Shown: positions 15,912-30,789 of the stretch, in pieces
How the letters are laid out: every line of letters starts with the position of its first letter
Numbering within the stretch: the stretch's first letter is position 1
From: Candidatus Woesearchaeota archaeon
GTDB taxonomy: Archaea > Nanobdellota > Nanobdellia > Woesearchaeales > ARS49
Assembly: GCA_003599055.1 (NCBI GenBank)
Contig: QZIM01000011.1
Span: 937-64,936, forward strand
Length of the DNA: 64,000 nucleotides
Reading direction: 5' to 3'
Position numbers and translations under genes: made by a program
The notes under the pieces: generated by a model
The model's database searches: none
Seen by the model: the letters and a program-made list of their open reading frames with translations, nothing else
What the model was told of the DNA's origin: nothing

Positions 15912-16007
15912 AAGGGAGGGGTGATGGGCGTATTTAAGAGTTTTAAAATATAATTTATATAATTTATTAGGATTTTCATTAAGTACGGTATCGCCCTGCA
16001 GGATGAG

Positions 16008-17411: not shown

Positions 17412-17414
17412 AAG

Positions 17415-18692
17415 TCACCTCTTTGCGCGTATGGTTCGCGCAGTGCTATTTATTGCTTGTGGGCTGATTTGGATGTTGCGGGGTGCGGGCTCTTCCGGAG
17501 GGTTCACCCAGTCAAACACTTGGCGTTCAAGGGTGAATATTTCGGAGAGGTCGCGAAGGAAGTGGATGGTGCCGCGAATCTGTCCGTCTTCGCCGGTGAG
17601 CGGGGTGATGTTGAGGGCGACAAGGGTTGCCGCTCCGTCTTTGAGCGTGAGGGGGAGGACAAAGTCGGTGATTGTTTTTCCGGAAAGGACGGATTGGATT
17701 GCTAATTCGATTTTTGTCTTCGCTTCGGGGGAGGTGAATGCGCGTGCAATCCAGGTGTTTTGGTGTGCAAGGTCGTTTTTTTCGTATCCGCTGAACTTGG
17801 TGAGGGTGGGGTTGCTCATAAGCAGTTTTCCGTCGGTTGCGAATGCGAGGATGGGAACGCCTGCGTTTTCGATGAGGCGTGAGATGAATGAGCGTTCTGC
17901 CGTGAGCGCGTGTTCGGTGCTTTTGAGGGCGGTGATGTCGCGGCCGACGCAAAGGATGGCGGATACCTTGCCGTTTTCATCCTTGACCGGGGTGAACGTT
18001 TCAAGGCTCCATTCGTGGTCTGCTTTTGTTTTGTGCTGGACTTCAATGGTGGTTGTTTTTCCGCGAAGGGCGCTTGCGAGTGCGCGTTTTGCGCGGGCGT
18101 GGTATGGTTCGCGAAGGACAGTGGTGATGAACGGTCTGCGTTCATCGTGTTGGGGAAGGTTGTGTTCTGCGCGGCCCGCTTCGTTCATAAACGTGATTTT
18201 TCCGTGTGCGTCAAGGAGGGTGATGCAGTCGGGTGAGCTTTGGGCAAGGGTGCGGTAGCGCTCTTCCGCTTCGCGTTTTTCGCGTTCGGCGCGCTCTTTT
18301 GCTTCAAGGGCTTCGCCGAGCTTGAGTTCTTCCTTTTTGAGCCCGACTTTTTCAACCGCGAGCTTGAGGGAGACAAGGACGCGGTCAAATGCGCGGGCGA
18401 GTTCTCCAAGTTCGTCTTGGCGTTCCTTGCCGCGCACGTGCGCATCAAGTTTTCCGCGGCTGATGTCTTCGATGGTTGCGGTGAAGTGTTGGATTCTGCG
18501 CGAGATGTGCACGGCATATATTCCGCCAAAGGCGGATGCGACAAGGAGGGGGAGGGCGGCAAGCGCGACCGTATTGAAGGTGAACGCGGATGAGGGGTAG
18601 TGAAGGAACACGACGAGGATGAAGTATTCAACGGCAAGGGCTGTTGCGCAAATGCCCAAAAGTGCGGTGACTATTTTTGTTTTCAGGTTCAT
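17415..18692 (-). CDS. Membrane HAMP + coiled-coil + two PAS domain sensor with no recognisable output domain
   Basis: Two N-terminal TM segments. HAMP (DELGELARAFDRVLVSL). PAS-like blocks (YRTLAQSSPDCITLLDAHGKITFMNEAG; FISRLIENAGVPILAFATDGKLLMSNP). No H-box or ATPase motifs. Confidence 0.8.
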   Translation of the reverse strand: MNLKTKIVTALLGICATALAVEYFILVVFLHYPSSAFTFNTVALAALPLLVASAFGGIYAVHISRRIQHFTATIEDISRGKLDAHVRGKERQDELGELARAFDRVLVSLKLAVEKVGLKKEELKLGEALEAKERAEREKREAEERYRTLAQSSPDCITLLDAHGKITFMNEAGRAEHNLPQHDERRPFITTVLREPYHARAKRALASALRGKTTTIEVQHKTKADHEWSLETFTPVKDENGKVSAILCVGRDITALKSTEHALTAERSFISRLIENAGVPILAFATDGKLLMSNPTLTKFSGYEKNDLAHQNTWIARAFTSPEAKTKIELAIQSVLSGKTITDFVLPLTLKDGAATLVALNITPLTGEDGQIRGTIHFLRDLSEIFTLERQVFDWVNPPEEPAPRNIQISPQAINSTARTIRAKR

Positions 18693-18769
18693 AACGGCTC
18701 TTTTTTAAGCGTGTGCAGGAACCGGTGCTTAAATAGTTAACGAGAATAGTCCGCTGCGCACCGCGTAAC

Positions 18770-18778
18770 CTTTTTAAA
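18770..18778 (+). promoter_or_regulatory. TATA-like box (CTTTTTAAA) 27-35 nt upstream of tRNA-Gly
   Basis: Same box and spacing as at the other tRNA genes in the window. Confidence 0.6.
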
Positions 18779-18804
18779 CCAACGCCATTCTTGCGAAACT
18801 ATTC

Positions 18805-18929
18805 GCGCCGTTAGTATAGCGGTAGTACGCTGCCTTGCCATTGGTTGAGTCGGGCAAGAAGCATCCGTATCCAGGATGCCCGACGAAAGCAAAGAGGCTG
18901 TAGCCCGAGTTCGAATCTCGGACGGCGCA
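18805..18929 (+). tRNA. Intron-containing tRNA-Gly (GCC), integration target of the adjacent element
   Basis: Hand fold: GCGCCGT-TA-GTAT-AGCGGTA-GTAC-G-CTGCC-TTGCCA[54-nt intron]A-GGCTG-TAGC-CCGAG-TTCGAAT-CTCGG-ACGGCGC-A. There is one U-U mismatch in the anticodon stem. The intron holds an 8-bp stem (gtcgggca/tgcccgac). Confidence 0.65.
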
Positions 18930-19010
18930 TCTGTACTGAAGTTGCAAGCGCTGCTTCTGCAATCTTGGGTAATACCAAGGTATAAAAGACGTCCAAGTGG
19001 AGAAACCCAC

Positions 19011-20249
19011 ATGGCGGAAAACGACATCTACAATTCGAAAGAGGCGTACGAGCGGATGGTTCGGAACTTGGCTGACTTCGCTGAGCCGGGACGGCACAAA
19101 GTGTATGTGTGCAAGAACCGCGAGAATCTGAAGTACATTGAGAAGCTTATTTTGCACTTCGAAGCGCGCGATTTGAGTTATGTGCGAAGGATTCGCTTGT
19201 TCGGCATGATGAAAATCGTGATGCACACTACGGAGAAGAACCTCAAGGACTGCACAAGGGACGATATCGACCGCATGGTTGCGTTCGTAAACAAGCAGTA
19301 CAAGAGTCCCAAGTCCGCAAGTGATTTCAAGCGCGATGTCAAGTTCATCTGGAAGATTATTCTTCCAGACCTTGATGAGAAAGGACGTCCTGACGAGACT
19401 GTCTTTCCTTACGTTGTGCGTCATCTCAGGCAAGTTATTGATAAGAGCAGGCAAAAGGCAAGGACAGACCGTATTTCTTGGAATGATTTTGAGAAGCTGT
19501 TGATATTCTTCAGCAAGAAGCCCTGCGTCCAAGCGTATTTGATGGTTGCTTTGGAGAGCTTGGGGCGTCCGCAAGAACTTTTATGGCGCAGAATCAAGGA
19601 CGTTGAACATCACGATAATTGTGCAAAGGTTCATATCACTGACCACGGCAAAGAGGGTACGGGGATATTGCAGTGCATCGATTCTTACCCGTATTTGACT
19701 TCTTGGCTTAATGTTCATCCCTTCAAGAAAGACCCCGAAGCGTTCTTGTTTGTTAATGAGCGCGGGGAACAGTATAGGCCTGCTGCTTTGAACAAGCATC
19801 TGCGTATTGCATGTAAGAAGCTTGGCATTAGCAAGATAACGTGTTACTCTATCAAGCGTAATGGGGTGACTTTTAGGCGCTTGCGGGGCGACAGTGACGT
19901 TGAGATTCAGCACGCGGCGCGCTGGACGAGCACAAAACAGCTTAAAACGTACGATTTGAGCAACCAAGAGGACGCGTTCAAGCTTGAGTTGGTCAAGCGT
20001 GGGCTTGTCAAAGCTGATGCAGGAATGGAGCACTTGCAACCATCGGCCAAGGCGTGCGTATTCTGCAAGTTCTCGAACAAGTTTACCGATGATATTTGCG
20101 TTCAATGCCAAAGACCGCTTGACAGGAAGAAGGTCGCAGAACTTGAACGCGAGCGGGAAATCAAAGCCCTCAACGACTTCATGAGCATACCGCAGATACA
20201 GGAGTTGTTTAAGACGGTGTACGAACTGAAGAGACAGATTGAGAATTAA
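19011..20249 (+). CDS. Tyrosine recombinase/integrase with a C-terminal zinc-ribbon
   Basis: The catalytic region resembles XerC/D (RNGVTFRRLRG...HAARWTSTKQLKTYD). C-terminal CVFCKF...CVQCQRP. Start chosen at MAENDIY (ATG 19011), because the longer ORF would run through the tRNA. Confidence 0.8.
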   Translation: MAENDIYNSKEAYERMVRNLADFAEPGRHKVYVCKNRENLKYIEKLILHFEARDLSYVRRIRLFGMMKIVMHTTEKNLKDCTRDDIDRMVAFVNKQYKSPKSASDFKRDVKFIWKIILPDLDEKGRPDETVFPYVVRHLRQVIDKSRQKARTDRISWNDFEKLLIFFSKKPCVQAYLMVALESLGRPQELLWRRIKDVEHHDNCAKVHITDHGKEGTGILQCIDSYPYLTSWLNVHPFKKDPEAFLFVNERGEQYRPAALNKHLRIACKKLGISKITCYSIKRNGVTFRRLRGDSDVEIQHAARWTSTKQLKTYDLSNQEDAFKLELVKRGLVKADAGMEHLQPSAKACVFCKFSNKFTDDICVQCQRPLDRKKVAELEREREIKALNDFMSIPQIQELFKTVYELKRQIEN

Positions 20250-20256
20250 CTCTTAT

Positions 20257-21309
20257 TCACTTTGAATTTTTGAGCGTTCGCAGAACTTCTTTCGCAACAA
20301 CTTCCGCCAATTTTGGTGGAACGGCATTTCCTACTTGTTGCCAAGCGGGCGAACCATATTCGCTGCCTTGACCCTTAATTCCAGATACAAAGTGATTGTC
20401 TGGAATCCCTTGAATGCGCTTAATCTCTTTTAGAGTAAGACGTCGATTGTTCCAATGAAATGGACCAACGGAGTTCCAGGGTTGCGCTTGAATGGTGGTG
20501 GATGGCTCATTCGGGTCGAGCTTTAGTAGAAATGTCCAGAACTTGGACCTATCTCCAAATAATACTTGTTTCTTGCTATACTCGCGCGTGTAGAAAATGT
20601 AATTCATACCAGGGGGAATCTTGTTCACTAGGTGACCGTGCTTTCCACCGATGCTCTTTCCTCCGTCGTGAACAAGGTGGTCGTCTAAATCTCCAATCAC
20701 TTCTCGAACAGAGACAAACTGCTTCAAGTCTTTTCCCGTTCCATGTGTTGGACGCGGAAACTCAAATTTGGTCTTCTTTCTAAAACCAATCAAAAATAAT
20801 CGTTTGCGTTTTTGCGCCACACCGTAGTCCGCAGCATTCAACACTTTATACTTGATATCGTAGTTGATTGAGTTATAGAAATTCAAGAGCTGATTGAAGT
20901 CGCGCCCTTTATTAGATGACAAAAGTCCCGCAACGTTTTCCATTATGAACGACTTGGGTTTGATTTCTTTTACGAGTCGTGCGAACTCAAAAATCATTAA
21001 TCCGCGTGCGTCTTTTGTGCCTTTACGTTTTCCTTCGTTCGATCGTGAAAATGGTTGACAGGAAGGACCTCCCACAATTAAATCCACTTTGCCACGTGAC
21101 CGCTTAATCTTTCTCAAAAGCGAACTCCCTTTGACTTCACTGACGTCTCTATCCTCAATAACGGTTTTTTTCCAGTTTTTTCTTAACGTCTCAATACAAA
21201 AAGGGTCATTATCAACTTGTGCAAGAATCCGAAACCCTGCACGTTCTATGCCTAAGTCCAATCCGCCCAATCCTGAAAATAGGCTGATTGCTTCAAACCT
21301 CTTTTTCAT
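20257..21309 (-). CDS. dcm: DNA (cytosine-5)-methyltransferase
   Basis: Motif I LFSGLGGLDLG, motif IV GGPSCQPFS, motif VI IMENV, motif VIII QKRKRLFLIG, motif X GNAVPP. Start chosen at MKKRFEAISLFSG (ATG 21309), 10 nt after the HerA-like stop. Confidence 0.92.
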   Translation of the reverse strand: MKKRFEAISLFSGLGGLDLGIERAGFRILAQVDNDPFCIETLRKNWKKTVIEDRDVSEVKGSSLLRKIKRSRGKVDLIVGGPSCQPFSRSNEGKRKGTKDARGLMIFEFARLVKEIKPKSFIMENVAGLLSSNKGRDFNQLLNFYNSINYDIKYKVLNAADYGVAQKRKRLFLIGFRKKTKFEFPRPTHGTGKDLKQFVSVREVIGDLDDHLVHDGGKSIGGKHGHLVNKIPPGMNYIFYTREYSKKQVLFGDRSKFWTFLLKLDPNEPSTTIQAQPWNSVGPFHWNNRRLTLKEIKRIQGIPDNHFVSGIKGQGSEYGSPAWQQVGNAVPPKLAEVVAKEVLRTLKNSK

Positions 21310-21319
21310 AGTAATCAAC

Positions 21320-23209
21320 CTACTTATTTTCTAGATATCTTTTAATTCTATCGTTTGCATTTGGAAATTGAACGGGTAATGGTACGTTCGTTAGTCCAGT
21401 GGCATCATAACTGAATAAAAGCCACTGTCCTTTCTTAAATGATAATGTTCTTTTTAACATATCGTCCGATGCTCCAAATGCGTCGCCTATGACTCTTCGG
21501 TCGTATTCTCTAGGCAGTTTTGATAGTAAGAAAGTATGGGGTTGTGAGAGAATTGATGTGTCGAGGTATGCAACTCTTTGTGTTGCAATTCCCAATCCCA
21601 ATCCAAATTTACGTCCCCTTCTAGCCAGCAAGGTACACGCTGCTTTTGATGCAACGTAACTGTCATCCAAATTGGAACCTTGTGGAATAAACTCGTCTGC
21701 CTCATCGTACACAAAGACTACATGAGGAGAAATCCTGCCAGTAATTCTTCTTGAGCCGCAAGCATAATTCACTAAATCGCTTGAGAAGTTGCGTAAATCA
21801 TCACCGCGATTGCTTTGCACAATAAGTATGCTCGGCTTGTCAGTCTTGCTTAATATTGCTTGTACCTGTGAAAGAGACAAGCACGCATTTTCTGGCAGAG
21901 GGTCAACTTTAGTTCGGTTTACATATTTCTCCAACTCGGTTTGCATATTTATCAAACAATTTTTCGCAGTGGTAGTGACTGCTATAGTTCTATTTGCAGA
22001 AGTTCTTGCAGGAGCAAGGGAACTCTGTGTGGCTTGACCTGCAGGTCTAGTGTAATCAATTAATTTGTCCTGTAGAATTGCTTGGTCAACATCTGCCTTG
22101 AGATTCTTTAAAACGTCCTCACTTGTAGACGCAACCCCCGAACCGATGAGGTGATGCTCGAGCATTTTCTTAACGTGCGGTTCCGAACCACCGAGATTGC
22201 CCTTGATACAGTCATAAAGTTTAGCCTTTAAGTCACTGACCGACGGCATATCGGAACCGGTACTGAACAAACGAATTTTGTTTTTCTGAAGCAACTCAAT
22301 CACGATTTTCTTGTACTTTTCACGCAAAGGAATCAGTTCTTTCGGAAGTAAAAGAGTTTTAACTATTGATTCTGCTGCTTCAGCTACCTTCGTCGTGTCG
22401 CCCCTCAGGACTGCTTCAGTTGCAATTGAACCAGGAAGGGAGTCCTCGCTTAACGATAGGATGTATGCATCATCTAAAGAATGTACGAGGTCAATTACGA
22501 GCGCGAGATACTCGGTCATAAAATCAAAAAGCACTACTTTGTTCGGTTCAGTCGTTTGTAACAAATTTGCCATGAGTTCACTGAGCAAGTTTGATTTACC
22601 TGCCCCAGTAAAACCAAATATTCCAAAGTGGGTTTTAAGCAAATCCTCAGTGCTCAATTTAACAGAAACGTCCTTATTCAAAATCAAGTTACAAGGGCTG
22701 ATTGTCTTGACACTTCCATCGATGAGACCTCGATTTACAATCATATTTACTTGTTCGTCAGTAAGCAAATGTGCGTCCTCGCCTATCATGGGCAGACTAT
22801 CGTCATTTTCTAATTTTGAACTGCCTGAGTTCTGTATGACTAATTGAAGACCAGTTGAGATAGTTTCTGCCTTGATTTTTGTCGTTTGCTCAATGGGCTC
22901 GTCTTGTTCCCAATCAACTTTAGCATTTCTTGCGGCTTCAACTACAAATCCGGGAAACGCACGCTCAGTATCTTTCGCTGAACTTCCTAGTGCGTAGTGC
23001 TTCGGAAAAACTGAAACAACTTCAAGTATGCTAAACGATGTACCGCTGCCAGAACTGTTAAAATTTCTAACCGCAATGAAACTGCCAACTTTGATTTCAA
23101 GGACATACGATTTTGTATAATCGAACCAGACTGAATAAACGTTATCTGAGGAGTTCTCAGAATCCATAGATACAACAACACCTTTAGGCTTATCTTTGAA
23201 ATATTTCAT
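21320..23209 (-). CDS. HerA-like (DUF87/FtsK-HerA superfamily) hexameric-type ATPase
   Basis: N-terminal HAS-barrel-like segment (VGSFIAVRNF...FSILEVVSV). Walker A GIFGFTGAGKSNLLSELM. Walker B VVFVYDEADEFIP. RGRKFGLGLGIATQRVAYLDTSILSQPHTFLLSKL is typical of HerA. GAGGTG lies upstream of the ATG. Confidence 0.8.
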   Translation of the reverse strand: MKYFKDKPKGVVVSMDSENSSDNVYSVWFDYTKSYVLEIKVGSFIAVRNFNSSGSGTSFSILEVVSVFPKHYALGSSAKDTERAFPGFVVEAARNAKVDWEQDEPIEQTTKIKAETISTGLQLVIQNSGSSKLENDDSLPMIGEDAHLLTDEQVNMIVNRGLIDGSVKTISPCNLILNKDVSVKLSTEDLLKTHFGIFGFTGAGKSNLLSELMANLLQTTEPNKVVLFDFMTEYLALVIDLVHSLDDAYILSLSEDSLPGSIATEAVLRGDTTKVAEAAESIVKTLLLPKELIPLREKYKKIVIELLQKNKIRLFSTGSDMPSVSDLKAKLYDCIKGNLGGSEPHVKKMLEHHLIGSGVASTSEDVLKNLKADVDQAILQDKLIDYTRPAGQATQSSLAPARTSANRTIAVTTTAKNCLINMQTELEKYVNRTKVDPLPENACLSLSQVQAILSKTDKPSILIVQSNRGDDLRNFSSDLVNYACGSRRITGRISPHVVFVYDEADEFIPQGSNLDDSYVASKAACTLLARRGRKFGLGLGIATQRVAYLDTSILSQPHTFLLSKLPREYDRRVIGDAFGASDDMLKRTLSFKKGQWLLFSYDATGLTNVPLPVQFPNANDRIKRYLENK

Positions 23210-23218
23210 GTTTGCACC

Positions 23219-25030
23219 TCATCGGAATGTATCTCGAATAACTCTGAAAGTTTTTGATAGTGGTTTTGACTTAAACGCCCATTCGCTTGAATCCAATAAA
23301 CCTACGACTCTCCTTTGTAACGATTTTGCACCCCAGTCTGCCTGATGCAGCGGGTCAGGATATCCGAGTGCTTCTGGAAAGTGATTTCTGACCAAGACTG
23401 CGAGCAAATACATCGTTAACACTTGCAACTTTGGAGGGCCTGTCGCTTCATCAAATAGCAATGGGTTTATTTCTCCCAACCCTTCAGTCTTTATTGAGAC
23501 TTTGGAAGAGTTCTTATCATCCCAGCCATCGTACGCGAGTCGGTCTATAAAAAGCGCATGGGAGGAAAGATTGCGGTCAGGAGAGAGAAAGAACTGTCCA
23601 AGTGACCGTAAAAAGATGCGTTCGGGTCGTGTAACTTCAAGTCCCATTCCTGTAAAGTAACCTTTGACCTGCCATTTGTTGTCCAGATATTCAGAGTGCA
23701 GGGTCATAAAACAAGAATCAAAATCAAATGTTGCCCACGGCGCGTTCAAAGTTAAGTCGACATTCGGCAGGAGTTCGGCAATAGCTCGGTCGGTGAGCGG
23801 AAGTGAAAAGTGCTTGAACTGGTCTCCCCCTCTGAGTAGATTTACGGTTCCTAAGAAATTCTTGTAGTAAAATCTAGACATGGAGTCCTTGACTATCCCA
23901 ATCAATAAGATTCTTCTTCGCCAGCATAATTCGATTAAAGCGCGTAATCCAATTCCGACAAGGAACATAATGTCTCTGGGAGAAAAGTATTCCAATTCAT
24001 TGGAATTTTTCAGTTTAAAACAAACGCCATGGGGGTCTTTTTGTCTGAATAATTTCTCGCAGACGGTCTCAAAAATTCTTAATGATTTTTGCCAGGATGC
24101 TCTGGGGTCGACATCAAACTCGAAGCTTTTTTCTGTCTCATTGAGTTTTCCTGCACCGATTCTTTCCAAAAAGCGGGCACCGGTCTCAAATGTGTCAGGC
24201 TGAAGTTTATCGCATTCCTTCGCCGTAATTTTTCGTTTCTCTCTCCAAGCGGCTTCAGCAATTAACCGAAAATGCGGTTGAAATCTTTTGGTCGATGGAA
24301 TTTCAAGCGTTCTATTAAATGGGTGTGCTAAAGCGATTTGGATATCGGCTTCAGAAAGCGATTCACCGTTAAAATCGCCTTTCCCGAGTGTGATGGAGCT
24401 GGGCGCAAAACTGGTATTTCCTAATATTCCTCCGACGCTGTTATCGATTAAGATTATTCGCGGGCAATCTGTAGCGGAAGAATTCGCCAATGAATATGCG
24501 AGATAGATTTCGGCAAGTTGCATTATTTTTGTATGCAAAGAACTTATCTCGGCAACCTCGGTATCATTGTAAACTATTGGGCCTTCTGCGGAAGTTTCAC
24601 CTTCAACAGAACTGCGCATAACATCAGGAGGAATTGGTACGAATGCAACCATTGAGACGTCTTTGTTAAACTCCCATCGGTTATATCTAAGTTTTCCGCC
24701 TGTTTCCGCAAATGAAATTGTTCCCTGTGAACCGTATGCGCCCCCATAGAAAGAAATGAAATTTGCCGACTGTTGCTTGTGACAACTGGCATCTATAGCT
24801 ACAAATCGTACTTCAGTACTTTCAAAAAACTGTTCTGCTATTCGTTTAATCTCGAGCCGTTTAATCTCATCTTTGAAGTCATCCGCGAATGACTTTACGA
24901 ATTTTTTAATCAACTCATCATATCGTTTTTTCAGACTCTTCGAATGAGTCTTTAGCCGCTCTGAGTATTCAGCCTGAGAACTCTCCAAACTCTGTTGATA
25001 TTGTCCATAGACCTTAGATATCTCCGACAT
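23219..25030 (-). CDS. Large NurA-like (RNase-H-fold) nuclease candidate, partner of the HerA-like ATPase
   Basis: Three blocks resemble the NurA signature strands: VRFVAIDAS, PRIILIDNSVGG and LLIGIVKDSMSRFY. The gene is directly upstream of, and co-oriented with, the HerA-like gene (9-nt gap). The assignment is by eye only. Confidence 0.5.
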   Translation of the reverse strand: MSEISKVYGQYQQSLESSQAEYSERLKTHSKSLKKRYDELIKKFVKSFADDFKDEIKRLEIKRIAEQFFESTEVRFVAIDASCHKQQSANFISFYGGAYGSQGTISFAETGGKLRYNRWEFNKDVSMVAFVPIPPDVMRSSVEGETSAEGPIVYNDTEVAEISSLHTKIMQLAEIYLAYSLANSSATDCPRIILIDNSVGGILGNTSFAPSSITLGKGDFNGESLSEADIQIALAHPFNRTLEIPSTKRFQPHFRLIAEAAWREKRKITAKECDKLQPDTFETGARFLERIGAGKLNETEKSFEFDVDPRASWQKSLRIFETVCEKLFRQKDPHGVCFKLKNSNELEYFSPRDIMFLVGIGLRALIELCWRRRILLIGIVKDSMSRFYYKNFLGTVNLLRGGDQFKHFSLPLTDRAIAELLPNVDLTLNAPWATFDFDSCFMTLHSEYLDNKWQVKGYFTGMGLEVTRPERIFLRSLGQFFLSPDRNLSSHALFIDRLAYDGWDDKNSSKVSIKTEGLGEINPLLFDEATGPPKLQVLTMYLLAVLVRNHFPEALGYPDPLHQADWGAKSLQRRVVGLLDSSEWAFKSKPLSKTFRVIRDTFR

Positions 25031-25063
25031 CTGACACTCCTGTCGAGTCAGGAAATATGAAGC

Positions 25064-25072
25064 ATATATAAA
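25064..25072 (-). promoter_or_regulatory. TATA-like box (TTTATATAT on the minus strand) upstream of the NurA-like/HerA-like/Dcm operon
   Basis: It lies 34-42 nt upstream of ATG 25030. No comparable box occurs in the 9-10-nt gaps between the three genes. Confidence 0.45.
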
Positions 25073-25097
25073 CTATCCTACGAACTCAACTCTGACC

Positions 25098-25817
25098 TTA
25101 CTTCAGCGCGCAGAGTTTATTATGAATCTTCCGCGCTACGATAATACTCTCTCCTGGAGGACTCAATCCAACTGGCGTGATGCTAATGACAAAATTCTTT
25201 ATTCGGAAGTGTATATTGTGGTGACCATTGAAATCGGAATACTCGACTCTTTCCTCTCCATAATCTCCTGTGTTCATTTTGGTATTTCCTTTATGCTGTT
25301 TCGCATCTGCCAATATGGTGCTCAGATAGTTTGAGGCAGCACCAGCACTATCGTAATCCCAAATAGAAATCTGTAATTGAGGAAGTCTTTGAGTGACTAA
25401 GTGCTTTAGGTGCGGAACGCCGCCAACCCGTACCTTGCTACCATCCGCAACAGTTATATCCAAGTCGCTATCGGGAATCGTATACTCTTCCCAACTGTTG
25501 CGTTCTTGAAACCTTTGGGGAAGTTCTGCCCTGTCGAGTGTAAACGCATCTAATCCGATATTAGCGGGGAATTGACATTTTTGTAGGCCGTCACTTACTG
25601 ATAATTGTTCTGTGCTGCTTGACTGCTGGATTGTTTGGGGTGTGTATTGTTCTATTTTTTCTGGGCACTCCTCAAGTGAATTTGCGGTGCTTCCATCAAA
25701 GCACTGTATCACCATTCTCTCAATTGCTTGTTTTTGAGCTGGCTGCTGAACGCAGGATATCAACAGCAGAACTACAAGACTGAACAATATGCTATTTCTT
25801 GATGTTGTGGTTTGCAT
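25098..25817 (-). CDS. Hypothetical lipoprotein/secreted protein (element cargo)
   Basis: N-terminal signal with a lipobox-like LLLISC. No family motif recognised. Confidence 0.55.
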   Translation of the reverse strand: MQTTTSRNSILFSLVVLLLISCVQQPAQKQAIERMVIQCFDGSTANSLEECPEKIEQYTPQTIQQSSSTEQLSVSDGLQKCQFPANIGLDAFTLDRAELPQRFQERNSWEEYTIPDSDLDITVADGSKVRVGGVPHLKHLVTQRLPQLQISIWDYDSAGAASNYLSTILADAKQHKGNTKMNTGDYGEERVEYSDFNGHHNIHFRIKNFVISITPVGLSPPGESIIVARKIHNKLCALK

Positions 25818-25870
25818 AGTGTTTGTTTAATAAATGAAGTATTTAAAATCTTTGTCTATCTGATGTCTAC

Positions 25871-26914
25871 TTATCGGATTTGTTCGAACTTTTTCACTTC
25901 TTGTTCGAGAGAATTACGGTCTTGGATGAGTTTTTGCTTTTCGTAATCGGGATTGTATCCGCCTTTTTTCAATAGTTCGCGGTTGTCTTCAATGAATTTC
26001 TCAAGTTCAAATGTGCTTCTGATTGCGATTCGTCCTGGTTCGGCTCTTTCTTGCATTTCTCGCTCAATATCGACGTTTTCGAGCGTCCGAAGTACGTCCA
26101 ATGAGACAAGGGAATACTCCATGCTGTTCTTTGCGCTTTTTATTCGTTGAATTTGTTCATTGTATTGAATCAGAACTTGATTCTCCTCTTTGGTAAGCGT
26201 GGGACGATTTGCAGGCGGAGGAACTGAAGTTTCTGTGCGATTGTTCTTCAATTCGTTTTGTACTGGTTTTGATGCTTGTCTTGGTTCGGGCGCAGGAGGC
26301 GAACCTGAGAATAAACTACCAAACCACGTGAACAGGAAGAAATCCTTGAAGACTACATAGTGCGTCTCATCTTTGGTTAAGCTAATATCAAACTTTACGG
26401 CATTGTCGGACATTTTATTCCCGTTCGTCTCAATAATTCTGCCGAAGGTTTCAACGGTGTATGTTATTTTGAACAAGCTTGATGCCATTCCGCTCGCAAA
26501 TTCATCTTGTTCCGTTTCTTGTTCTTTGACTGGGAAATGAATCTCATAGGTGAAGTAGTAATAAGGAAATTTGAACTCGCGACTGATTTTGTAGGAGTCC
26601 TTATTCATGAAGGCTGCCGTTTTCTCATCACCTTGAGACAGAAATAAGCTATCTGTTTGAGGGTCTACATCCGTGAATTGGTATGTTGCACTTTTCTCAG
26701 TCTCGGAATATGTGTATTTGCGGGTTATCGCAGGGTTCACCTGAAACTGCTCTTTCATGTTCTCAAGAATCATGGTAGAATCGGACTTGAAGGTGAGGGA
26801 TAAATCCACTTTTCCGCTTCTTTTGAGTTTCTGTTGGATGTCGATTTGGAGGCATCCTGTTAGTAGAAGCAGGATGAGGATGCTTCCAGCGATTGCTGTC
26901 TTGTTCATAGGCAA
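25871..26914 (-). CDS. Hypothetical lipoprotein with an internal TM and a C-terminal coiled coil (element cargo)
   Basis: Signal with a lipobox-like LLLTGC. Hydrophobic FFLFTWFGSLF mid-protein. Helical charged C-terminus. Confidence 0.55.
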   Translation of the reverse strand: MPMNKTAIAGSILILLLLTGCLQIDIQQKLKRSGKVDLSLTFKSDSTMILENMKEQFQVNPAITRKYTYSETEKSATYQFTDVDPQTDSLFLSQGDEKTAAFMNKDSYKISREFKFPYYYFTYEIHFPVKEQETEQDEFASGMASSLFKITYTVETFGRIIETNGNKMSDNAVKFDISLTKDETHYVVFKDFFLFTWFGSLFSGSPPAPEPRQASKPVQNELKNNRTETSVPPPANRPTLTKEENQVLIQYNEQIQRIKSAKNSMEYSLVSLDVLRTLENVDIEREMQERAEPGRIAIRSTFELEKFIEDNRELLKKGGYNPDYEKQKLIQDRNSLEQEVKKFEQIR

Positions 26915-27000
26915 TGCTCTGATTTGCTACATTGCTTATAATTCTTTTGTCCATCTGTTGTCGCTCTGACCTAATAAGTCAATCCGTTGTCTATCTGCCT

Positions 27001-27297
27001 ATGGACTTAGCGGGCAAGCAGTGGACGCTCTTCTCTTGGGTTAAGCGAGGAAAACAAAGAGTTGCTGTTCTGATTGCATTGCAACCAAATCAACCCGTAA
27101 CGGGGCAGGAATTGCGCAAAAAGATAAACGCAGAGGGTAAGATTCACCCCCTCAGCTTACGAGAAATATCACGTCACTTGACTGCGTTCAAAGACGAAGG
27201 GATTGCAGAGTGTTTGGATGAGAACGCACCTTACGGGAAGCACTATGTTTTGACAGATTTAGGGGTTAAGATTAGAGCGGAAGTATCAAAAGTCTAA
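27001..27297 (+). CDS. Small winged-helix (ArsR/PadR-like) transcriptional regulator
   Basis: RVAVLIALQPNQPVTGQELRKKIN...LSLREISRHLTAFKDEGIAECL...YVLTDLG is a typical wHTH pattern. Start chosen at MDLAGKQW (ATG 27001). Confidence 0.6.
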   Translation: MDLAGKQWTLFSWVKRGKQRVAVLIALQPNQPVTGQELRKKINAEGKIHPLSLREISRHLTAFKDEGIAECLDENAPYGKHYVLTDLGVKIRAEVSKV

Positions 27298-27299
27298 GT

Positions 27300-27755
27300 T
27301 TAGTTCTCAGACGGGAGAACTTCATCATCAAACTTAAGTTCTCCGTGCTTCTTGATGTGTTCTTCCCTTAATTCGTTCATGATTTTGGTTATGTCAAAGG
27401 TACGTTCGGGAGTCTTTGGGGTTATCTCTGCATTGATTTTCTGCCTTGTTCCGTGAATTGCTTCGTGGGCGCGTATCATAACTTGGAGAAGCTTCAAGCG
27501 ACCGTCAATGGTGAGATTTGGGTCATTCTTGATTTGTTCGAGATAGCGCAGAATCTCTACTGCGCTAATGTCTGCATCAACAACACAGTCTACAACGTCC
27601 ATTGCTGATTTTTTGCGGTCAGATGCCCAACGTGCAGCCCGTATTTTCGCTGCAAGTGTTTTTGTTGCACTGCGCACAGAACCGCCCATGCGGGCGATTT
27701 CTGAGCGTTCTTCGGGGCTTCTTTGTCGTAACGAGATTAGATGTTCCTGGCTCAT
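27300..27755 (-). CDS. Hypothetical protein (helical, basic N-terminus)
   Basis: 151-aa ORF inside the element. No motif recognised. Confidence 0.45.
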   Translation of the reverse strand: MSQEHLISLRQRSPEERSEIARMGGSVRSATKTLAAKIRAARWASDRKKSAMDVVDCVVDADISAVEILRYLEQIKNDPNLTIDGRLKLLQVMIRAHEAIHGTRQKINAEITPKTPERTFDITKIMNELREEHIKKHGELKFDDEVLPSEN

Positions 27756-27878
27756 TTCTGTTGTTATCCTGTGCTTATCAGTTGTTTGTTTTGTTTAAAA
27801 GCGTTCAGCCGTACAAATAACAAAACACACCTCTGCTTCGCAGGGTGTTTGTTTGGCATAAAAACAATATACTGCCTA

Positions 27879-28904
27879 CTAAACAATGAGTCCGTCGCTC
27901 TCACAGACTTGATAAATTCCCTTTTTGAGTTTTTTCAAGATGCCTGCGAGTTGGAACTCTTTAAGCACGGCATACACGGCAGTGTATCCGATGCCTTTAC
28001 TTTTGAGTTCCACAACCAATTGTTTAGCTTCAAAGCGACAGATTTTTTCCTTTGTTATCCAACCTATTGCGATTTTTTTGGCTTCTTCAAGAACACTTGG
28101 GGAGATAATCATTTCAGGACAATCAACTTGTTCAAGGTAGTGCCCTCCTGTTGATGTTTTAATAAGTTTGAATCGTATTGGTTCCGCTTCCGTGTTGTCT
28201 CTGCATTTTGTATTTCTCAACAAAAAGGTGTCTTTTTCTTTCTTAATAATCCAAACAAGGTCTGCCATTGCTGAGAAATCACTGCTTCCGCGCAGGCTTG
28301 CATTGGTGTCCCTCCCGCCGTTTTTTCGCACGTGATGTAAAAGCAGCCATGCACAATGATGTCGGTTGATGAGCCTAACGAGTACACTATGCAGTTTCCT
28401 CACATCTTCTGAGTTGTTCTCATCACCAGTAAGAAAGCGCGTTAGAGAATCGACGATTATCAAATCAGGCTTTATGCGTTCTATTAGCTCATCAAGGTCA
28501 TCAATTCGTTTGTCAATGGGCGAATTGAGTTTATAGTGATGATTCAACGCAAAATCAACGTTTACATTCTCTAAATCAAGGTCGTACCCTTTTGCGAGCG
28601 AAATGAGTCTATCCTTTAGGCGAACCAATCCATTCTCCTCATCGAGAATGAGGACTCTTCCAGGTTTAACATCGAAACCAAGAACTGCTCCCTGTTGGCT
28701 GCGTCCTACGTGTAAGCTTAACACTTGGCTGAGAAAGCTTTTGCAAGTTCCCTCTGCCCCTGCAAGTATGCAAATATTTTCTCGACCTACTATTCTATCG
28801 ACTATCCAACTTGGCGCAGGAATATTCGCCGTTGCCAATTCCCCCGCGCGCCAAATCTTCTTTGAACTTGTCTCTTCAGACTTGATGTGATTTGTTTCTA
28901 CCAT
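27879..28904 (-). CDS. RepA/DnaB-like RecA-family ATPase (AAA_25-type) with a C-terminal winged-helix-like tail; likely element replication protein
   Basis: Walker A ILAGAEGTCKSFLSQ, Walker B VLILDEENG, DLIIVDSLTRF, LLLHHVRKNG. Start chosen at MVETNH (ATG 28904) to avoid overlapping the upstream ORF. Confidence 0.7.
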   Translation of the reverse strand: MVETNHIKSEETSSKKIWRAGELATANIPAPSWIVDRIVGRENICILAGAEGTCKSFLSQVLSLHVGRSQQGAVLGFDVKPGRVLILDEENGLVRLKDRLISLAKGYDLDLENVNVDFALNHHYKLNSPIDKRIDDLDELIERIKPDLIIVDSLTRFLTGDENNSEDVRKLHSVLVRLINRHHCAWLLLHHVRKNGGRDTNASLRGSSDFSAMADLVWIIKKEKDTFLLRNTKCRDNTEAEPIRFKLIKTSTGGHYLEQVDCPEMIISPSVLEEAKKIAIGWITKEKICRFEAKQLVVELKSKGIGYTAVYAVLKEFQLAGILKKLKKGIYQVCESDGLIV

Positions 28905-28917
28905 TTTTTTCACCACA

Positions 28918-29220
28918 TTAATATCTGATGTATTTTTCAATGAGCCAAGATGCATGGTCGGTAAATTTGTACATTGCAACTTCTCTTCCACGACCAAAAC
29001 GTTCATCTGAATATTCAAGGTTCAGCAAGTCGTCTCCGAGCCATTTTAAGATGAGAAGTTCCGCGGGTAAATTTGAACCATCAATTTTGGCTTGACAAAC
29101 TCGTATTTGACGAATGAATTCTTTTTTCGGGATGAAGTAGTCATGCTCTTTTTGTCCTTCACGCCCTGCCCAATAAAAAGTACTGCATAAAATCAGCCAG
29201 TTCTTGTCTTTCATCATCAT
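28918..29220 (-). CDS. Hypothetical protein
   Basis: 100-aa ORF co-oriented with the RepA-like gene. It has a 4-nt overlap with the upstream small ORF. Confidence 0.4.
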   Translation of the reverse strand: MMMKDKNWLILCSTFYWAGREGQKEHDYFIPKKEFIRQIRVCQAKIDGSNLPAELLILKWLGDDLLNLEYSDERFGRGREVAMYKFTDHASWLIEKYIRY

Positions 29221-30071: not shown

Positions 30072-30127
30072 CTTTTTTGGTGGTGCAAGTCGTCAAACTT
30101 AAAAAGGTCGGACAGTTGTCAAATTCT

Positions 30128-30595: not shown

Positions 30596-30789
30596 CGCTT
30601 GTTACTTAGGGCGTTAAGCACGGACGGCGCATGAGCAGGGCGAGTGCGGCGTTCGAGTCGGATAATCGGTGATGCAGTCGCTGATTTTTCTTACTTGGAC
30701 TGCGCATACGAATTAAAGTTGCCTGCGCTGCTTTGCGTGTCTTTTTTTTCGATTACTTAAAAGAGCAGCAGGTGGTCTGAGGGGTTTTC

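What the first reader, a model, noticed from the sequence alone, without database searches (positions are those of the whole stretch)
20257..25072. m5C methyltransferase + HerA-like ATPase + NurA-like nuclease operon on an integrated element: candidate unnamed restriction-type defence system
Seen in sequence: three co-oriented genes are separated by only 9 and 10 nt, with GAGGTG / AGGTTGA ribosome-binding-like sites. The order is NurA-like (603 aa), HerA-like (629 aa), then Dcm with all canonical motifs. There is a single TATA-like box upstream at 25064-25072, and the whole cassette lies in a lower-GC island. Established knowledge: HerA-NurA is the archaeal DNA-end-resection motor/nuclease pair, normally linked to mre11-rad50. 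HerA-family ATPases fused or coupled to effectors (SIR2-HerA, DUF4297-HerA) are validated anti-phage systems. A methyltransferase tightly coupled to a nuclease follows restriction-modification logic. Inference: this is a methylation-gated HerA/NurA DNA-degrading machine carried as mobile-element cargo. I know of no named system with this composition, but I cannot check that here.
Basis: partly seen in the sequence, partly recalled or inferred. Interest (0 to 1): 0.85.

Follow-up and report, generated by a model that had tools for sequence, protein, structure and literature searches.

The report
NurA–HerA nuclease motor with cytosine methylase
A small mobile element in an archaeal genome carries a three-gene operon pairing a DNA-shredding motor–nuclease (HerA plus an unusually large NurA) with a DNA cytosine methylase, and relatives elsewhere swap the methylase for a different DNA-marking enzyme, so it is most likely an undescribed restriction–modification-type defence system.

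Summary
Three minus-strand genes sit 9 and 10 nt apart behind one TATA-like box, on an ~11.7-kb low-GC element integrated at a tRNA gene.

- **Proteins.** The 603-aa protein has a NurA fold: the top 10 PDB fold matches are all NurA, and 31 of 59 homologs hit Pfam NurA. It also carries a hypervariable, probably winged-helix, insert of about 150 aa. The 629-aa protein is a HerA ATPase with intact Walker motifs. The third is a full-length C5 methylase.
- **Conservation.** NurA→HerA is adjacent in 69 of 72 genome loci. Of 50 loci with enough flank, 35 have a DNA-modification gene next to the pair: Dcm in 7 (all archaeal) and a DpdA-like TGT and/or DpdC-like DUF6884 in 28. The 11 loci with none nest inside modification-linked clades.
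- **Interpretation.** This module swapping is what a restriction–modification logic predicts. PADLOC has no model for the nuclease, and no paper in the library describes this composition.
- **Caveats.** Function is inferred only. Two bacterial lineages keep the pair without a cis-linked modifier. A *Thermus* element uses NurA/HerA-like proteins for DNA donation.

Verdict: a credible new variant of modification-gated restriction.

The parts
25064..25072 (-). TATA-like box (TTTATATAT), the only obvious promoter element upstream of the operon
   Evidence: Read directly from the sequence. It lies 34-42 nt upstream of the ATG at 25030. Promoter function was not tested.
25035..25040 (-). Shine-Dalgarno-like GGAGTG ahead of the first gene
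   Evidence: Read directly from the sequence.
23219..25030 (-). Enlarged NurA-like nuclease (603 aa): N-terminal long helix (aa 3-69) and an RNase-H-like NurA core split by an insert
   Evidence: AF2 model pLDDT 87.3, pTM 0.89. The top 10 Foldseek PDB hits are all NurA (9x1m_G at 4.9e-8; 2ygk_A with TMt 0.64). 31 of 59 homologs hit PF09376 NurA, with the match running from about aa 75 to about 400-450 and skipping the insert. D80, E174, D196, D382, D414, D436, D438, H491, D559, H562 and D565 are at least 95% conserved in 60 sequences. The window protein itself has no direct Pfam, PDB-sequence or PADLOC hit.
23981..24433 (-). Insert within the NurA domain (aa ~200-350) containing a probable MarR-like winged helix; the most variable part of the protein
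   Evidence: Homologs P0111, P0112 and P0113 hit MarR/MarR_2/HTH_24 at aa 255-303. Blocks aa 261-300 have the lowest conservation (majority fraction 0.28-0.29). The separate AF2 model of aa 197-352 has pLDDT 87.2. Its Foldseek list is dominated by MarR, DtxR and GntR wHTH proteins, but none is significant (best E 0.21).
21320..23209 (-). HerA-family hexameric ATPase/translocase (629 aa)
   Evidence: PF01935 DUF87 at 1.5e-12. PADLOC PDLC01055 'HerA, Type III coevolved' at 9.7e-69. Nearest PDB sequences are T. kodakarensis HerA of the HerA-NurA complex (1.6e-12) and S. solfataricus HerA. It scores far below all NCBIfam HerA equivalog cut-offs.
22592..22615 (-). HerA Walker A (GFTGAGKS, aa 199-206)
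   Evidence: Motif search plus conservation in 60 HerA sequences; G-K-S is invariant.
21698..21721 (-). HerA Walker B (VVFVYDEA, aa 497-504), followed by RRGRK (aa 530-534)
   Evidence: alignment to T. kodakarensis HerA.
20257..21309 (-). C5 cytosine DNA methyltransferase (350 aa from ATG; an upstream in-frame TTG at 21318 is possible)
   Evidence: PF00145 at 1.5e-69 over the full length. TIGR00675 dcm at 1.8e-64. Best PDB match is M.HaeIII over the whole length, 2.8e-38. Motifs I FSGLG, IV PSCQ, VI ENV, VIII QKRKR and X GNAV are present.
18805..18929 (+). Intron-containing tRNA gene used as the integration target (attL side)
   Evidence: Rfam RF00005, 49.3 bits, 3.4e-8. ARAGORN calls 18835-18929.
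18919..18930 (+). attL core, CGGACGGCGCAT, at the tRNA 3' end
   Evidence: Direct repeat D4 and the pairwise alignment.
30621..30632 (+). attR core, an identical 12-mer at the right-hand GC transition
   Evidence: GC rises from 0.45 to 0.53 between 30 and 32 kb. My rough estimate of the chance of a given 12-mer occurring in a 2-kb boundary zone is about 1e-4.
18876..20249 (+). Tyrosine recombinase/integrase of the element (the likely true start is the ATG at 19011, after the tRNA), convergent with dcm
   Evidence: PF00589 at 5.4e-8; NF040815 XerA-like at 3e-7.
27879..29018 (-). AAA_25 (RecA/RepA-like) ATPase, the probable replication or maintenance gene of the element (context, not part of the system)
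   Evidence: PF13481 at 1.4e-30.

Best explanation
This is a three-gene restriction–modification-type defence cassette carried as cargo on an ~11.7-kb element integrated at a tRNA gene.

- **Marking.** The Dcm enzyme, which resembles M.HaeIII, marks resident DNA with 5-methylcytosine at a short motif.
- **Degradation.** HerA is predicted to form a hexameric ATP-driven translocase and to dock a NurA-like nuclease, probably as a dimer, as in archaeal HerA–NurA complexes. DNA entering from a free end or break would be threaded through the ring into the RNase-H-fold active sites and degraded processively.
- **Self-protection.** DNA carrying the resident mark is spared. The most likely mechanism is that the hypervariable winged-helix insert in the NurA subunit reads the motif or mark and stalls or disengages the machine. 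This would act as a Chi-like 'stop' signal written epigenetically.
- **Mark swapping.** In sister clades the same core uses a different mark, written by DpdA-like TGT and DpdC-like DUF6884 enzymes (7-deazaguanine chemistry).

Shown: the protein folds, intact ATPase and methylase motifs, conserved acidic residues, operon structure, conserved linkage and mobile context. Inferred: complex formation, DNA degradation, which DNA is attacked, and how the mark protects.
For: 1. **Identities.** NurA fold; HerA with Walker A and B; full-length C5 methylase.
2. **Operon.** 9- and 10-nt spacers and a single TATA-like box.
3. **Obligate pair.** NurA→HerA is adjacent on the same strand in 69 of 72 genome loci with room.
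4. **Linkage to DNA-modifying enzymes of two unrelated chemistries.** Of 50 loci with at least 2 kb of flank, 7 have Dcm within 1 kb, 28 have TGT/DUF6884 within 2 kb, and 4 more have one within 8 kb. TGT neighbours hit PADLOC DpdA (up to 1.8e-98). DUF6884 hits DpdC and PDC-M57A, and the literature describes it as having the YaaA-like DNA-binding fold (PMC11701544). One locus carries a Vut_1/YhhQ-type transporter next to the operon.
5. **Selection for linkage rather than frozen synteny.** Dcm occurs downstream on the same strand (window, L003, L008, L074, L088), downstream and convergent (L001), upstream on the same strand (L004, L005, L010, L023), and upstream and divergent (L089).
6. **Methylase replacement.** Dcm identity tracks NurA/HerA identity except in L007, where an unrelated Dcm (27% identical, 445 aa) has replaced it.
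7. **Decay patterns typical of R-M.** NurA is frameshifted while TGT/DUF stay intact (L082, L083). In L017 one deletion removes the NurA C-terminus, HerA and the Dcm N-terminus together.
8. **Neighbours.** PstI-like REase with an Eco57I-like MTase, GmrSD, Vsr, an SLFN-like helicase, type III R-M, TA modules, HEPN, HNH, Prim-Pol and transposases.
9. **Distribution.** The family is rare and patchy across archaeal and bacterial phyla: 378 of 1.84e9 cluster representatives. The Dcm type spans DPANN, Asgard, Thaumarchaeota, Bathyarchaeia and methanogens.
10. **Related HerA clade.** The HerA clade is the one described as co-evolving with type III CRISPR-Cas.
11. **Biochemical precedent.** T. kodakarensis HerA-NurA degrades both strands of dsDNA, and its authors suggest an antiviral role (PMC12977600).
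Against: - There are no experimental data for any member.
- 11 of 50 evaluable loci have no modification gene within the sampled flank. In Armatimonadota (next to mutS) and Latescibacterota (with a UvrD helicase) the pair shows conserved synteny across species, which looks more like a stable chromosomal function than a mobile defence gene.
- No domain with a recognised methyl- or deazaguanine-reading fold (SRA, EVE, PUA, YTH) was found. The wHTH assignment rests on weak hits.
- HerA-NurA needs DNA ends, and no endonuclease that would create them is encoded in the window. It is therefore unclear how circular or end-protected invaders would be attacked.
- Dcm motif IV is Ser-Cys rather than Pro-Cys, so activity is assumed, not shown.
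- No relative was found on IMG/VR viral contigs. This is neutral for defence but gives no direct virus link.
- One TGT-type locus (L033) has Mre11/Rad50-like genes downstream, echoing the repair operon.
Confidence: 0.55

Rival explanations
1. DNA-processing or DNA-donation module of the mobile element, as in Thermus thermophilus ICEth1. There, a NurA-like nuclease and the HerA/FtsK-like ATPase TdtA, encoded with a restriction enzyme and a methylase on an ICE inserted at a tRNA gene, push DNA out of the donor cell ('transjugation'). Under this reading the methylase would protect or mark the transferred DNA.
For: ICEth1 has a strikingly similar inventory: integrase, insertion at a tRNA 3' end with direct repeats, type IIG REase, NurA-like protein, TdtA and an N4/N6 methylase. 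Both the NurA-like protein and the REase are needed for efficient transfer (PMC5365140). The window cassette is also on an integrase-bearing element at a tRNA gene. A Nitrosopumilus-type sub-clade carries Dcm-NurA-HerA-Eco57I-like MTase-PstI-like REase as one block.
Against: Most homologous loci lack any integrase or ICE hallmark and sit among housekeeping or defence genes. No VirB4, TraG, relaxase or other transfer genes were seen. The conserved partner is a DNA-modifying enzyme of interchangeable chemistry, not a REase. The HerA's best model is the Cas-associated HerA, and conjugative ATPase models score only E of about 0.01-0.17. The ICEth1 NurA is 377 aa, so it lacks the insert that defines this family. 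Sequence relatedness to TdtA or TTC1878 could not be tested here.
Confidence: 0.12
2. The NurA-HerA pair is a self-sufficient anti-linear-DNA or DNA-end surveillance nuclease (RecBCD-like). The methylase or TGT genes would simply be neighbouring, functionally independent defence or 'orphan' modification genes that co-localise in islands.
For: 11 of 50 loci have the pair alone. HerA-NurA complexes degrade dsDNA from ends without any modification partner (PMC12977600). Defence genes cluster generally, and L005 and L090 show dense islands.
Against: Spacers of 9-10 nt, and 16-nt overlaps in TGT-type loci, indicate co-translation in one operon. 35 of 50 loci have a modifier immediately adjacent, and only two enzyme classes recur rather than a random sample of defence genes. 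The 'none' loci nest within modifier-linked clades, so they look like secondary losses. Dcm co-diverges with the pair.
Confidence: 0.13
3. A DNA-repair paralogue: an alternative end-resection or lesion-processing machine. NurA-HerA would be coupled to base-flipping enzymes (Dcm with Vsr; TGT with the YaaA-like DUF6884) that recognise or process damaged or mismatched bases rather than marking self DNA.
For: Canonical HerA-NurA is a repair-associated pair. The DUF6884 member YfjM was reported among interactors of abasic and RNA-base lesions (PMC11701544). There is synteny with mutS in Armatimonadota, with UvrD in Latescibacterota, and with Mre11/Rad50-like genes in L033. HhH-GPD glycosylases lie near two Dcm-type loci.
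Against: The family is rare and patchy with cross-domain transfer. In the window it sits on a low-GC integrated element. There are defence-island neighbours. No mre11/rad50 genes are in the window. A sequence-specific M.HaeIII-like methylase has no obvious repair role. The hypervariable DNA-binding insert is typical of conflict systems.
Confidence: 0.08
4. An addiction (post-segregational killing) module that stabilises the integrated element. After loss of the element, methylation is diluted and the residual NurA-HerA attacks the chromosome. Defence against viruses would be secondary or absent.
For: The cassette makes up about 41% of an 11.7-kb element (4.8 kb). Type II R-M systems are known to behave this way (established knowledge). 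The methylase is the last gene of the operon and is convergent with the integrase.
Against: Many homologs are not on recognisable mobile elements. NurA-HerA needs DNA ends, so an intact circular chromosome would not be an immediate target. This reading is a sub-case of the best explanation rather than a true alternative.
Confidence: 0.1

Closest known systems
Archaeal HerA-NurA helicase-nuclease complex (S. solfataricus, P. furiosus, T. kodakarensis; PDB 2ygk, 3tal, 4d2i, 9x1l-9x1p)
   Same: Same two folds. The genes are adjacent and co-oriented. Walker A and B are intact, and conserved acidic residues sit at the start of the NurA domain (FVAID80). The expected mechanism is a hexameric translocase feeding dsDNA to a nuclease.
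   Different: This NurA is 603 aa against about 320-450 aa, with a long N-terminal helix and an insert of about 150 aa that looks like a wHTH. Sequence similarity is too low for Pfam or PDB sequence hits on the window protein. There is no mre11/rad50 linkage. It is coupled to a DNA methylase and sits on a mobile element.
CRISPR type III-associated 'Cas-HerA / Cas-NurA' pair (Shah et al. 2019, clusters 57/58; Vestergaard et al. 2014)
   Same: The HerA's best PADLOC model is PDLC01055 'HerA, Type III coevolved' (9.7e-69 for the window; 2.5e-81 over the full length for L041). In those systems HerA is 'always associated with NurA'.
   Different: The window has no cas genes or CRISPR array. The partner here is Dcm, or TGT/DUF6884 elsewhere. 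The NurA-like protein hits no PADLOC model.
HerA-effector anti-phage systems: SIR2-HerA (Nezha) and DUF4297-HerA (Gao_Her)
   Same: A HerA-family ATPase paired with one effector gene. Weak sequence similarity to their HerA subunits (PDB 8xau, 9c1m, 8j4u, 8wiv; 1e-10 to 3e-8).
   Different: The effector is NurA, not SIR2 or DUF4297. Those systems have no modification enzyme. The NCBIfam 'HerA_antiphage' equivalogs score 55-60 bits against cut-offs of 800-850.
Dpd 7-deazaguanine restriction-modification system (DpdA/B/C + DpdD-K)
   Same: The logic of 'unusual DNA mark plus ATP-driven restriction'. Sister loci of this family encode a DpdA-like TGT and a DpdC-like domain beside NurA-HerA.
   Different: The window has no TGT, DpdB or DpdC; it has Dcm. 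None of DpdD-K is present. The restriction part is NurA-HerA.
Thermus thermophilus ICEth1 tdtA operon (Tth111II - NurA-like - TdtA - methylase)
   Same: A NurA-like protein, a HerA/FtsK-like ATPase and a DNA methylase in one operon, on an integrase-bearing element inserted at a tRNA 3' end.
   Different: Its demonstrated function is DNA donation, not defence. It has an N4/N6 methylase and a type IIG REase. Its NurA is 377 aa, and TdtA is membrane-associated. Homology to the window proteins was not testable here.
Classical type II R-M with an M.HaeIII-like C5 methylase
   Same: The methylase is an ordinary full-length type II-like Dcm. Vsr genes accompany several homologous loci.
   Different: There is no recognisable sequence-specific restriction endonuclease. 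The candidate restriction component is a processive ATPase-nuclease pair.
HerA/FtsK-anchored 'capture' systems, the BREX-related capture system (HerA + TGT + GNAT) and MADS (mad8)
   Same: These are precedents for HerA/FtsK ATPases combined with DNA-modifying enzymes in predicted defence systems (PMC12839542). The window HerA hits PADLOC mad8 at 2.3e-17.
   Different: Those systems centre on PglZ/BrxC-like or DndFGH-like components and contain no NurA. None has the NurA-HerA-Dcm composition.
Tdp phosphorothioate-sensing system (TdpA/TdpB/TdpC), recalled from memory only
   Same: As I recall it, a HerA-like TdpA hexamer with a TdpB nuclease translocates on DNA and is inhibited by the self mark (phosphorothioate). 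That is the same 'mark stops the motor-nuclease' logic. PDB TdpA 8wet gives a weak hit to the window HerA (E 0.0074).
   Different: The mark is different. Sequence similarity is very weak. No TdpB-like chain appeared among the top 50 fold matches of the NurA-like model. The paper could not be read here, so this comparison is unverified.

Membership tests
NurA nuclease family (Pfam PF09376) | RNase-H-like NurA fold | tested here: met
   The top 10 Foldseek PDB hits are all NurA, with probability 0.96-1.00 and TMt 0.64 to S. solfataricus NurA, from a model with pLDDT 87.3.
NurA nuclease family (Pfam PF09376) | Sequence match to the family HMM above the gathering score | tested here: inconclusive
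   The window protein has no hit even at E <= 0.1. 31 of 59 homologs hit at E <= 0.01, and those inspected score 22.8-26.5 bits against a cut-off of 21.
NurA nuclease family (Pfam PF09376) | Conserved catalytic acidic/His residues (the D-E-D-H type active site of NurA) | tested here: inconclusive
   D80, E174, D196, H491, H562 and D565 are at least 95% conserved, and D80 lies where the Pfam NurA profile begins. Residue-by-residue superposition on a solved NurA active site was not possible.
NurA nuclease family (Pfam PF09376) | Encoded next to and working with a HerA ATPase | tested here: met
   69 of 72 loci have HerA starting within 600 nt downstream on the same strand. Physical interaction was not tested.
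HerA / FtsK-HerA superfamily ATPase (PF01935) | HMM match and Walker A/B P-loop motifs | tested here: met
   PF01935 at 48.5 bits against a cut-off of 23.2. GFTGAGKS and VVFVYDEA are conserved.
HerA repair or anti-phage equivalogs (NCBIfam NF040819, NF040937, NF042943, NF042944) | Score above the equivalog cut-off | tested here: not met
   48.6-67.5 bits against cut-offs of 800-970. It is not an ortholog of any named HerA subfamily.
C5 cytosine DNA methyltransferase (PF00145 / TIGR00675) | Full-length HMM match and motifs I, IV (catalytic Cys), VI, VIII, X | tested here: met
   235 bits over profile positions 1-322 of 324. The motifs were found, with motif IV as P-S-C-Q instead of P-C-Q.
Type II restriction-modification system | A cognate sequence-specific restriction endonuclease next to the methylase | tested here: not met
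   No REase family hit on any operon protein. Only NurA and HerA accompany Dcm.
Gao_Her (SIR2-HerA / DUF4297-HerA) | A SIR2 or DUF4297 effector paired with HerA | tested here: not met
   The effector is NurA-like, and there are no SIR2 or DUF4297 hits.
Dpd system | DpdA (TGT-like) with DpdB/DpdC and DpdD-K genes | tested here: not met
   None is present in the window operon. DpdA- and DpdC-like genes occur only in sister loci.
CRISPR type III accessory HerA/NurA | Location within or next to a type III cas cassette or CRISPR array | tested here: not met
   No CRISPR-like array in the 64-kb window, and no cas families among the island proteins scanned. The HerA sequence is nevertheless closest to that model.
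ICEth1-type transjugation module | NurA/HerA-like genes required for DNA donation; membrane-associated TdtA; type IIG REase in the operon | not testable with these tools
   Only the element architecture could be compared (integrase, tRNA att sites). No REase is present in the window operon.

The most novel reading that the evidence does not exclude
The window operon is one variant of a previously unrecognised, cross-domain class of restriction systems. In this class a processive HerA-NurA 'shredder' is restrained on self DNA by an interchangeable epigenetic mark: 5-methylcytosine in archaeal variants and a 7-deazaguanine derivative in the majority. The mark or motif would be read by a hypervariable winged-helix domain inserted into the nuclease. 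It would thus be an R-M system in which the mark works as a Chi-like stop signal for an exonuclease, rather than as a block to an endonuclease.
Probability: 0.35. Interest if true: 0.8.

Novelty: new variant of a known kind. Interest (0 to 1): 0.68.

Why it matters
If the inference holds, HerA-NurA would have a defined immune role coupled to DNA modification. Its physiological function in archaea is still debated: the 2026 T. kodakarensis study argues that it is not a resection enzyme and may be antiviral.

It would also add a restriction principle that differs from endonuclease-based R-M. A processive motor-nuclease would be gated by an epigenetic mark, and the mark-writing module can be exchanged (m5C or 7-deazaguanine) around a constant core.

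The swap gives a natural experiment for how a restriction machine re-tunes to a new mark. The candidate reader is the hypervariable wHTH insert.

It would also extend DpdA/DpdC-type DNA modification to many archaeal and bacterial lineages with a new restriction partner.

Practically, the three- or four-gene cassettes are small enough to test directly in heterologous hosts.

Tried and rejected
- **Direct annotation of the 603-aa protein.** Pfam, NCBIfam, PADLOC, PDB sequence and PDB profile searches gave nothing. The fold search and hits on homologs were needed.
- **IMG/VR viral contig scan** with the family profile: no relatives.
- **Metagenome contig scan.** I queried with the single window protein instead of the alignment.
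- **Modelling the NurA insert alone.** The model was good, but Foldseek gave no significant hit (best E 0.21). Only the predominance of MarR-type wHTH proteins in the list is suggestive.
- **N-terminal extension of 290-327 aa in P0066 and P0069.** No Pfam or PDB hit and no similarity to Dcm. A PD-(D/E)xK-like 'D...IDLK' motif is only my reading of the sequence.
- **Literature.** Ten searches (NurA/HerA with methyltransferase, defence, anti-phage, restriction-modification, DpdA, 7-deazaguanine, transglycosylase, DUF6884, CRISPR accessory, defense island) found no description of NurA-HerA coupled to Dcm or TGT.
- **Tdp system.** The paper I recalled could not be retrieved.
- **Large same-strand neighbours in loci with no modifier.** I considered that they might be hidden methylases. 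They are housekeeping genes instead: gyrB, IleRS, RmlD, ComEC, alkaline phosphatase and a serpin.
- **Canonical mre11-rad50-herA-nurA repair operon.** Rejected because no mre11/rad50 genes are in the window and the cassette lies inside a foreign island.

Full report

Yes. Three ORFs lie on the minus strand: 23219-25030 (603 aa), 21320-23209 (629 aa) and 20257-21318. The third gene most likely starts at the ATG at 21309, which gives 350 aa.

The junctions read TGA-ggtgcaaac-ATG (9 nt, with GAGGTG overlapping the stop codon) and TAG-gttgattact-ATG (10 nt). Upstream of the first gene are TTTATATAT (25072-25064) and GGAGTG (25040-25035).

The cassette sits in a compositional island. GC is 41-45% from about 19 to 31 kb, against 49-58% outside. 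The strong positive GC skew of the flanks falls to about zero inside the island.

**2. The element**

- Rfam finds an intron-containing tRNA at 18805-18929.
- Its last 12 nt (CGGACGGCGCAT, 18919-18930) recur at 30621-30632, exactly at the right-hand GC transition.
- A tyrosine recombinase (18876-20249; PF00589, XerA-like) follows the tRNA.
- The island also encodes an AAA_25 RecA/RepA-like ATPase, small wHTH-like proteins and two probable secreted or lipoproteins.

The operon is therefore cargo on an ~11.7-kb integrated element and makes up about 41% of it. The 603-aa protein is 100% identical to an NCBI 'hypothetical protein' of a Candidatus Woesearchaeota MAG.

**3. The three proteins**

*Dcm.* It hits PF00145 at 1.5e-69 over the full length and TIGR00675 at 1.8e-64. 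The best solved relative is M.HaeIII over the whole chain (2.8e-38). Motifs I, VI, VIII and X are canonical. Motif IV is P-S-C-Q rather than P-C-Q, and this variant is shared with the closest orthologs.

*HerA.* It hits PF01935. Walker A is GFTGAGKS, Walker B is VVFVYDEA, and an RRGRK segment follows; all are conserved. The nearest solved sequences are the HerA of the T. kodakarensis HerA-NurA complex and S. solfataricus HerA, followed by the HerA subunits of SIR2-HerA and DUF4297-HerA. It scores far below every NCBIfam HerA equivalog cut-off. Its best PADLOC model is PDLC01055, 'HerA, Type III coevolved' (9.7e-69). A homolog from a TGT-type locus matches that model end to end (2.5e-81). That model derives from the Cas-associated HerA/NurA pair.

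*The 603-aa protein.* It has no direct hit in Pfam, NCBIfam, PADLOC or PDB sequences. However:
- 31 of 59 homologs hit Pfam NurA.
- An AF2 model built on 59 sequences (pLDDT 87.3, pTM 0.89) returns only NurA structures as its ten best PDB matches.
- The Pfam matches start at about aa 75 and resume after aa 350. The NurA domain is therefore interrupted by an insert.
- In four homologs the insert hits MarR-type wHTH models at aa 255-303.
- The stretch aa 261-300 is the least conserved part of the protein.
- Modelled alone, the insert folds confidently (pLDDT 87.2). Its Foldseek list is dominated by MarR/DtxR/GntR wHTH regulators, but nothing is significant.
- D80, E174, D196, D382, D414, D436, D438, H491, D559, H562 and D565 are at least 95% conserved.

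The 'NurA-like' call is therefore right. The protein is an enlarged, insert-bearing variant.

**4. Conservation and what travels with the pair**

The family is rare: 378 of 1.84 billion cluster representatives match at E <= 1e-3. It is spread across many archaeal and bacterial phyla.

NurA→HerA is adjacent on the same strand in 69 of 72 species-representative genome loci that have room downstream.

The Dcm trio recurs in Pacearchaeota, Methanocalculus, Hodarchaeales, Bathyarchaeia, Methanobacteriota, Hecatellales, Cenarchaeum, Nitrosopumilaceae and several metagenome contigs. The methylase occupies four different positions and orientations. In one locus (L007) an unrelated Dcm has replaced it.

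In most other loci the neighbour is not Dcm. ORF clustering and Pfam show a TGT-superfamily protein and a DUF6884 domain, either split or fused in both orders. Typical arrangements are DUF6884-NurA-HerA-TGT or NurA-HerA-TGT::DUF6884, often with overlapping stop and start codons.
- These TGTs hit PADLOC DpdA (up to 1.8e-98).
- DUF6884 hits DpdC and the candidate PDC-M57A.
- DUF6884 has the YaaA-like DNA-binding 'cantaloupe' fold, and DpdC belongs to that YaaA family (DUF328/PF03883).
- One locus has a Vut_1/YhhQ-type transporter upstream. From my own knowledge, this is the family of queuosine-precursor transporters.

Of 50 loci with at least 2 kb on both sides:

| Neighbour of the NurA–HerA pair | Loci |
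|---|---|
| Dcm within 1 kb | 7 |
| TGT/DUF6884 within 2 kb | 28 |
| Modifier at 2-8 kb | 4 |
| None within the flank | 11 |

On an NJ tree of concatenated NurA+HerA, the Dcm loci form two groups. The loci with no modifier nest within modifier-linked clades. This tree is crude and should be redone by maximum likelihood.

**5. Context**

Dcm-type loci are flanked by:
- Vsr (L005, L087 and two more);
- a PstI-like REase with an Eco57I-like MTase (a conserved five-gene block in L005, L010, L016 and L023);
- GmrSD and an SLFN-like helicase;
- type III R-M and TA modules (L090);
- HEPN, HNH and Prim-Pol (L088);
- transposases.

No conjugation genes recur. No relatives were found on IMG/VR contigs. 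The window contains no CRISPR array.

**6. Mechanism**

The best-supported reading is a restriction-modification-type system. NurA-HerA is the ATP-driven degradative component, and the linked enzyme writes the self mark. The strongest single argument is the substitution of two chemically unrelated DNA-modifying modules around a constant core, in tight operons.

Supporting patterns are the co-divergence of Dcm with the pair, the replacement of Dcm in L007, and decay patterns typical of R-M. In L082 and L083 NurA is frameshifted while the modifier stays intact. In L017 one deletion removes all three activities together.

T. kodakarensis HerA-NurA degrades both strands from DNA ends, and its authors propose an antiviral role. 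I therefore propose that the machine attacks DNA ends and that the mark stops it, possibly read by the hypervariable wHTH insert. This step is inference.

**7. Caveats and rivals**

- Eleven loci lack a cis-linked modifier. In Armatimonadota (mutS neighbour) and Latescibacterota (UvrD neighbour) the pair looks stably inherited.
- L033 has Mre11/Rad50-like neighbours.
- Thermus ICEth1 shows that a NurA-like protein, a HerA-like ATPase and a methylase on a tRNA-integrated element can serve DNA donation instead.
- Independent co-localisation, a repair function and an addiction function are also considered and scored lower.

**8. Known or new?**

PADLOC v2 has no model for the nuclease. Ten full-text searches found no description of NurA-HerA coupled to Dcm or to TGT/DpdA.

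The nearest described items are:
- Cas-associated HerA/NurA;
- SIR2-HerA and DUF4297-HerA;
- Dpd;
- the HerA+TGT 'BREX-related capture' system;
- ICEth1;
- the Tdp system, from memory only and unverified.

The folds and the R-M logic are known. The composition, the insert-bearing NurA and the interchangeable marks appear undescribed, so this is a new variant of a known kind.

Interest is 0.68. It is a coherent, testable candidate system bearing on the debated role of HerA-NurA, but it is entirely computational so far.

Noticed in passing
window 1-19000 and 31000-64000 versus 19000-31000: The host parts of the window have a persistently strong positive GC skew (about +0.1 to +0.38 per kb, cumulative 12.6 over 64 kb). 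Inside the island the skew is about 0. This is an unusually one-sided strand composition for the host.
   Followed up: no
window 18805-18929: The two tRNA callers disagree. ARAGORN reports a 95-nt 'tRNA-Asp (atc)' at 18835-18929, and Rfam reports a 125-nt full-model match from 18805. It is probably an intron-containing archaeal tRNA whose identity is mis-called.
   Followed up: partly
window 21058-21066 (Dcm motif IV): The catalytic motif is G-G-P-S-C-Q (Ser-Cys) instead of the near-universal Pro-Cys. The variant is conserved in the closest system-linked orthologs (L001, L003, L008, L074) but not in the more distant ones.
   Followed up: partly
L005, L010, L016, L023 (Nitrosopumilus/Cenarchaeum-type loci): There is a conserved block: Dcm - NurA - HerA - Eco57I-like N6 methylase, followed in at least L005, L010 and L016 by a BsuBI/PstI-like restriction endonuclease. 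A classical type II R-M is thus welded to the NurA-HerA-Dcm trio, which recalls the REase+NurA+HerA+MTase operon of Thermus ICEth1.
   Followed up: partly
L090 (P0066, 934 aa) and P0069 (897 aa): These NurA-like proteins carry an extra N-terminal region of 290-327 aa with no Pfam or PDB hit. It contains a 'GGADADVVIDNQIIDLK' stretch that looks like a PD-(D/E)xK nuclease motif. No Dcm is adjacent in L090, but a type III R-M and TA modules are nearby.
   Followed up: partly
L017 8001-9583: This is a decayed locus. The first 366 aa of NurA are joined directly to the last ~170 aa of Dcm, so one deletion removed the NurA C-terminus, all of HerA and the Dcm N-terminus together.
   Followed up: no
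L033 8672-11828: A calcineurin-like phosphoesterase (Mre11/SbcD-like) and an SMC_N/AAA_27 protein (Rad50/SbcC-like) lie directly downstream of the DUF6884-NurA-HerA-TGT operon in a Thermodesulfovibrio MAG. This echoes the archaeal mre11-rad50-herA-nurA cluster.
   Followed up: no
L020 3193-3999: A Vut_1 (YhhQ-family) transporter gene lies two genes upstream of DUF6884-NurA-HerA-TGT. From my own knowledge, YhhQ transports preQ0/preQ1, which fits a 7-deazaguanine-based mark.
   Followed up: no
L046, L047, L049, L053, L058, L059 (Latescibacterota): NurA-HerA is followed by a UvrD-family helicase whose best PADLOC hits are GajB models, and in most of these loci (not L049) it is preceded by a small conserved protein with no family hit. 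Only L047 and L049 retain a TGT gene. This is a distinct sub-architecture.
   Followed up: partly
window 25098-25817 and 25871-26914: Two island genes encode proteins with N-terminal hydrophobic or lipobox-like segments (…LLLISC…, …LLLTGC…) and no family hits. They may be surface proteins of the element, for example for superinfection exclusion.
   Followed up: no
PADLOC model PDC-M57A versus DUF6884 proteins (L033, L041, L049): DUF6884 proteins of the TGT-type loci hit the PADLOC candidate-system component PDC-M57A (down to 8e-15). The NurA, HerA and TGT partners do not hit any PDC-M57 component. The DUF6884 module therefore seems to be shared with another candidate defence system.
   Followed up: no
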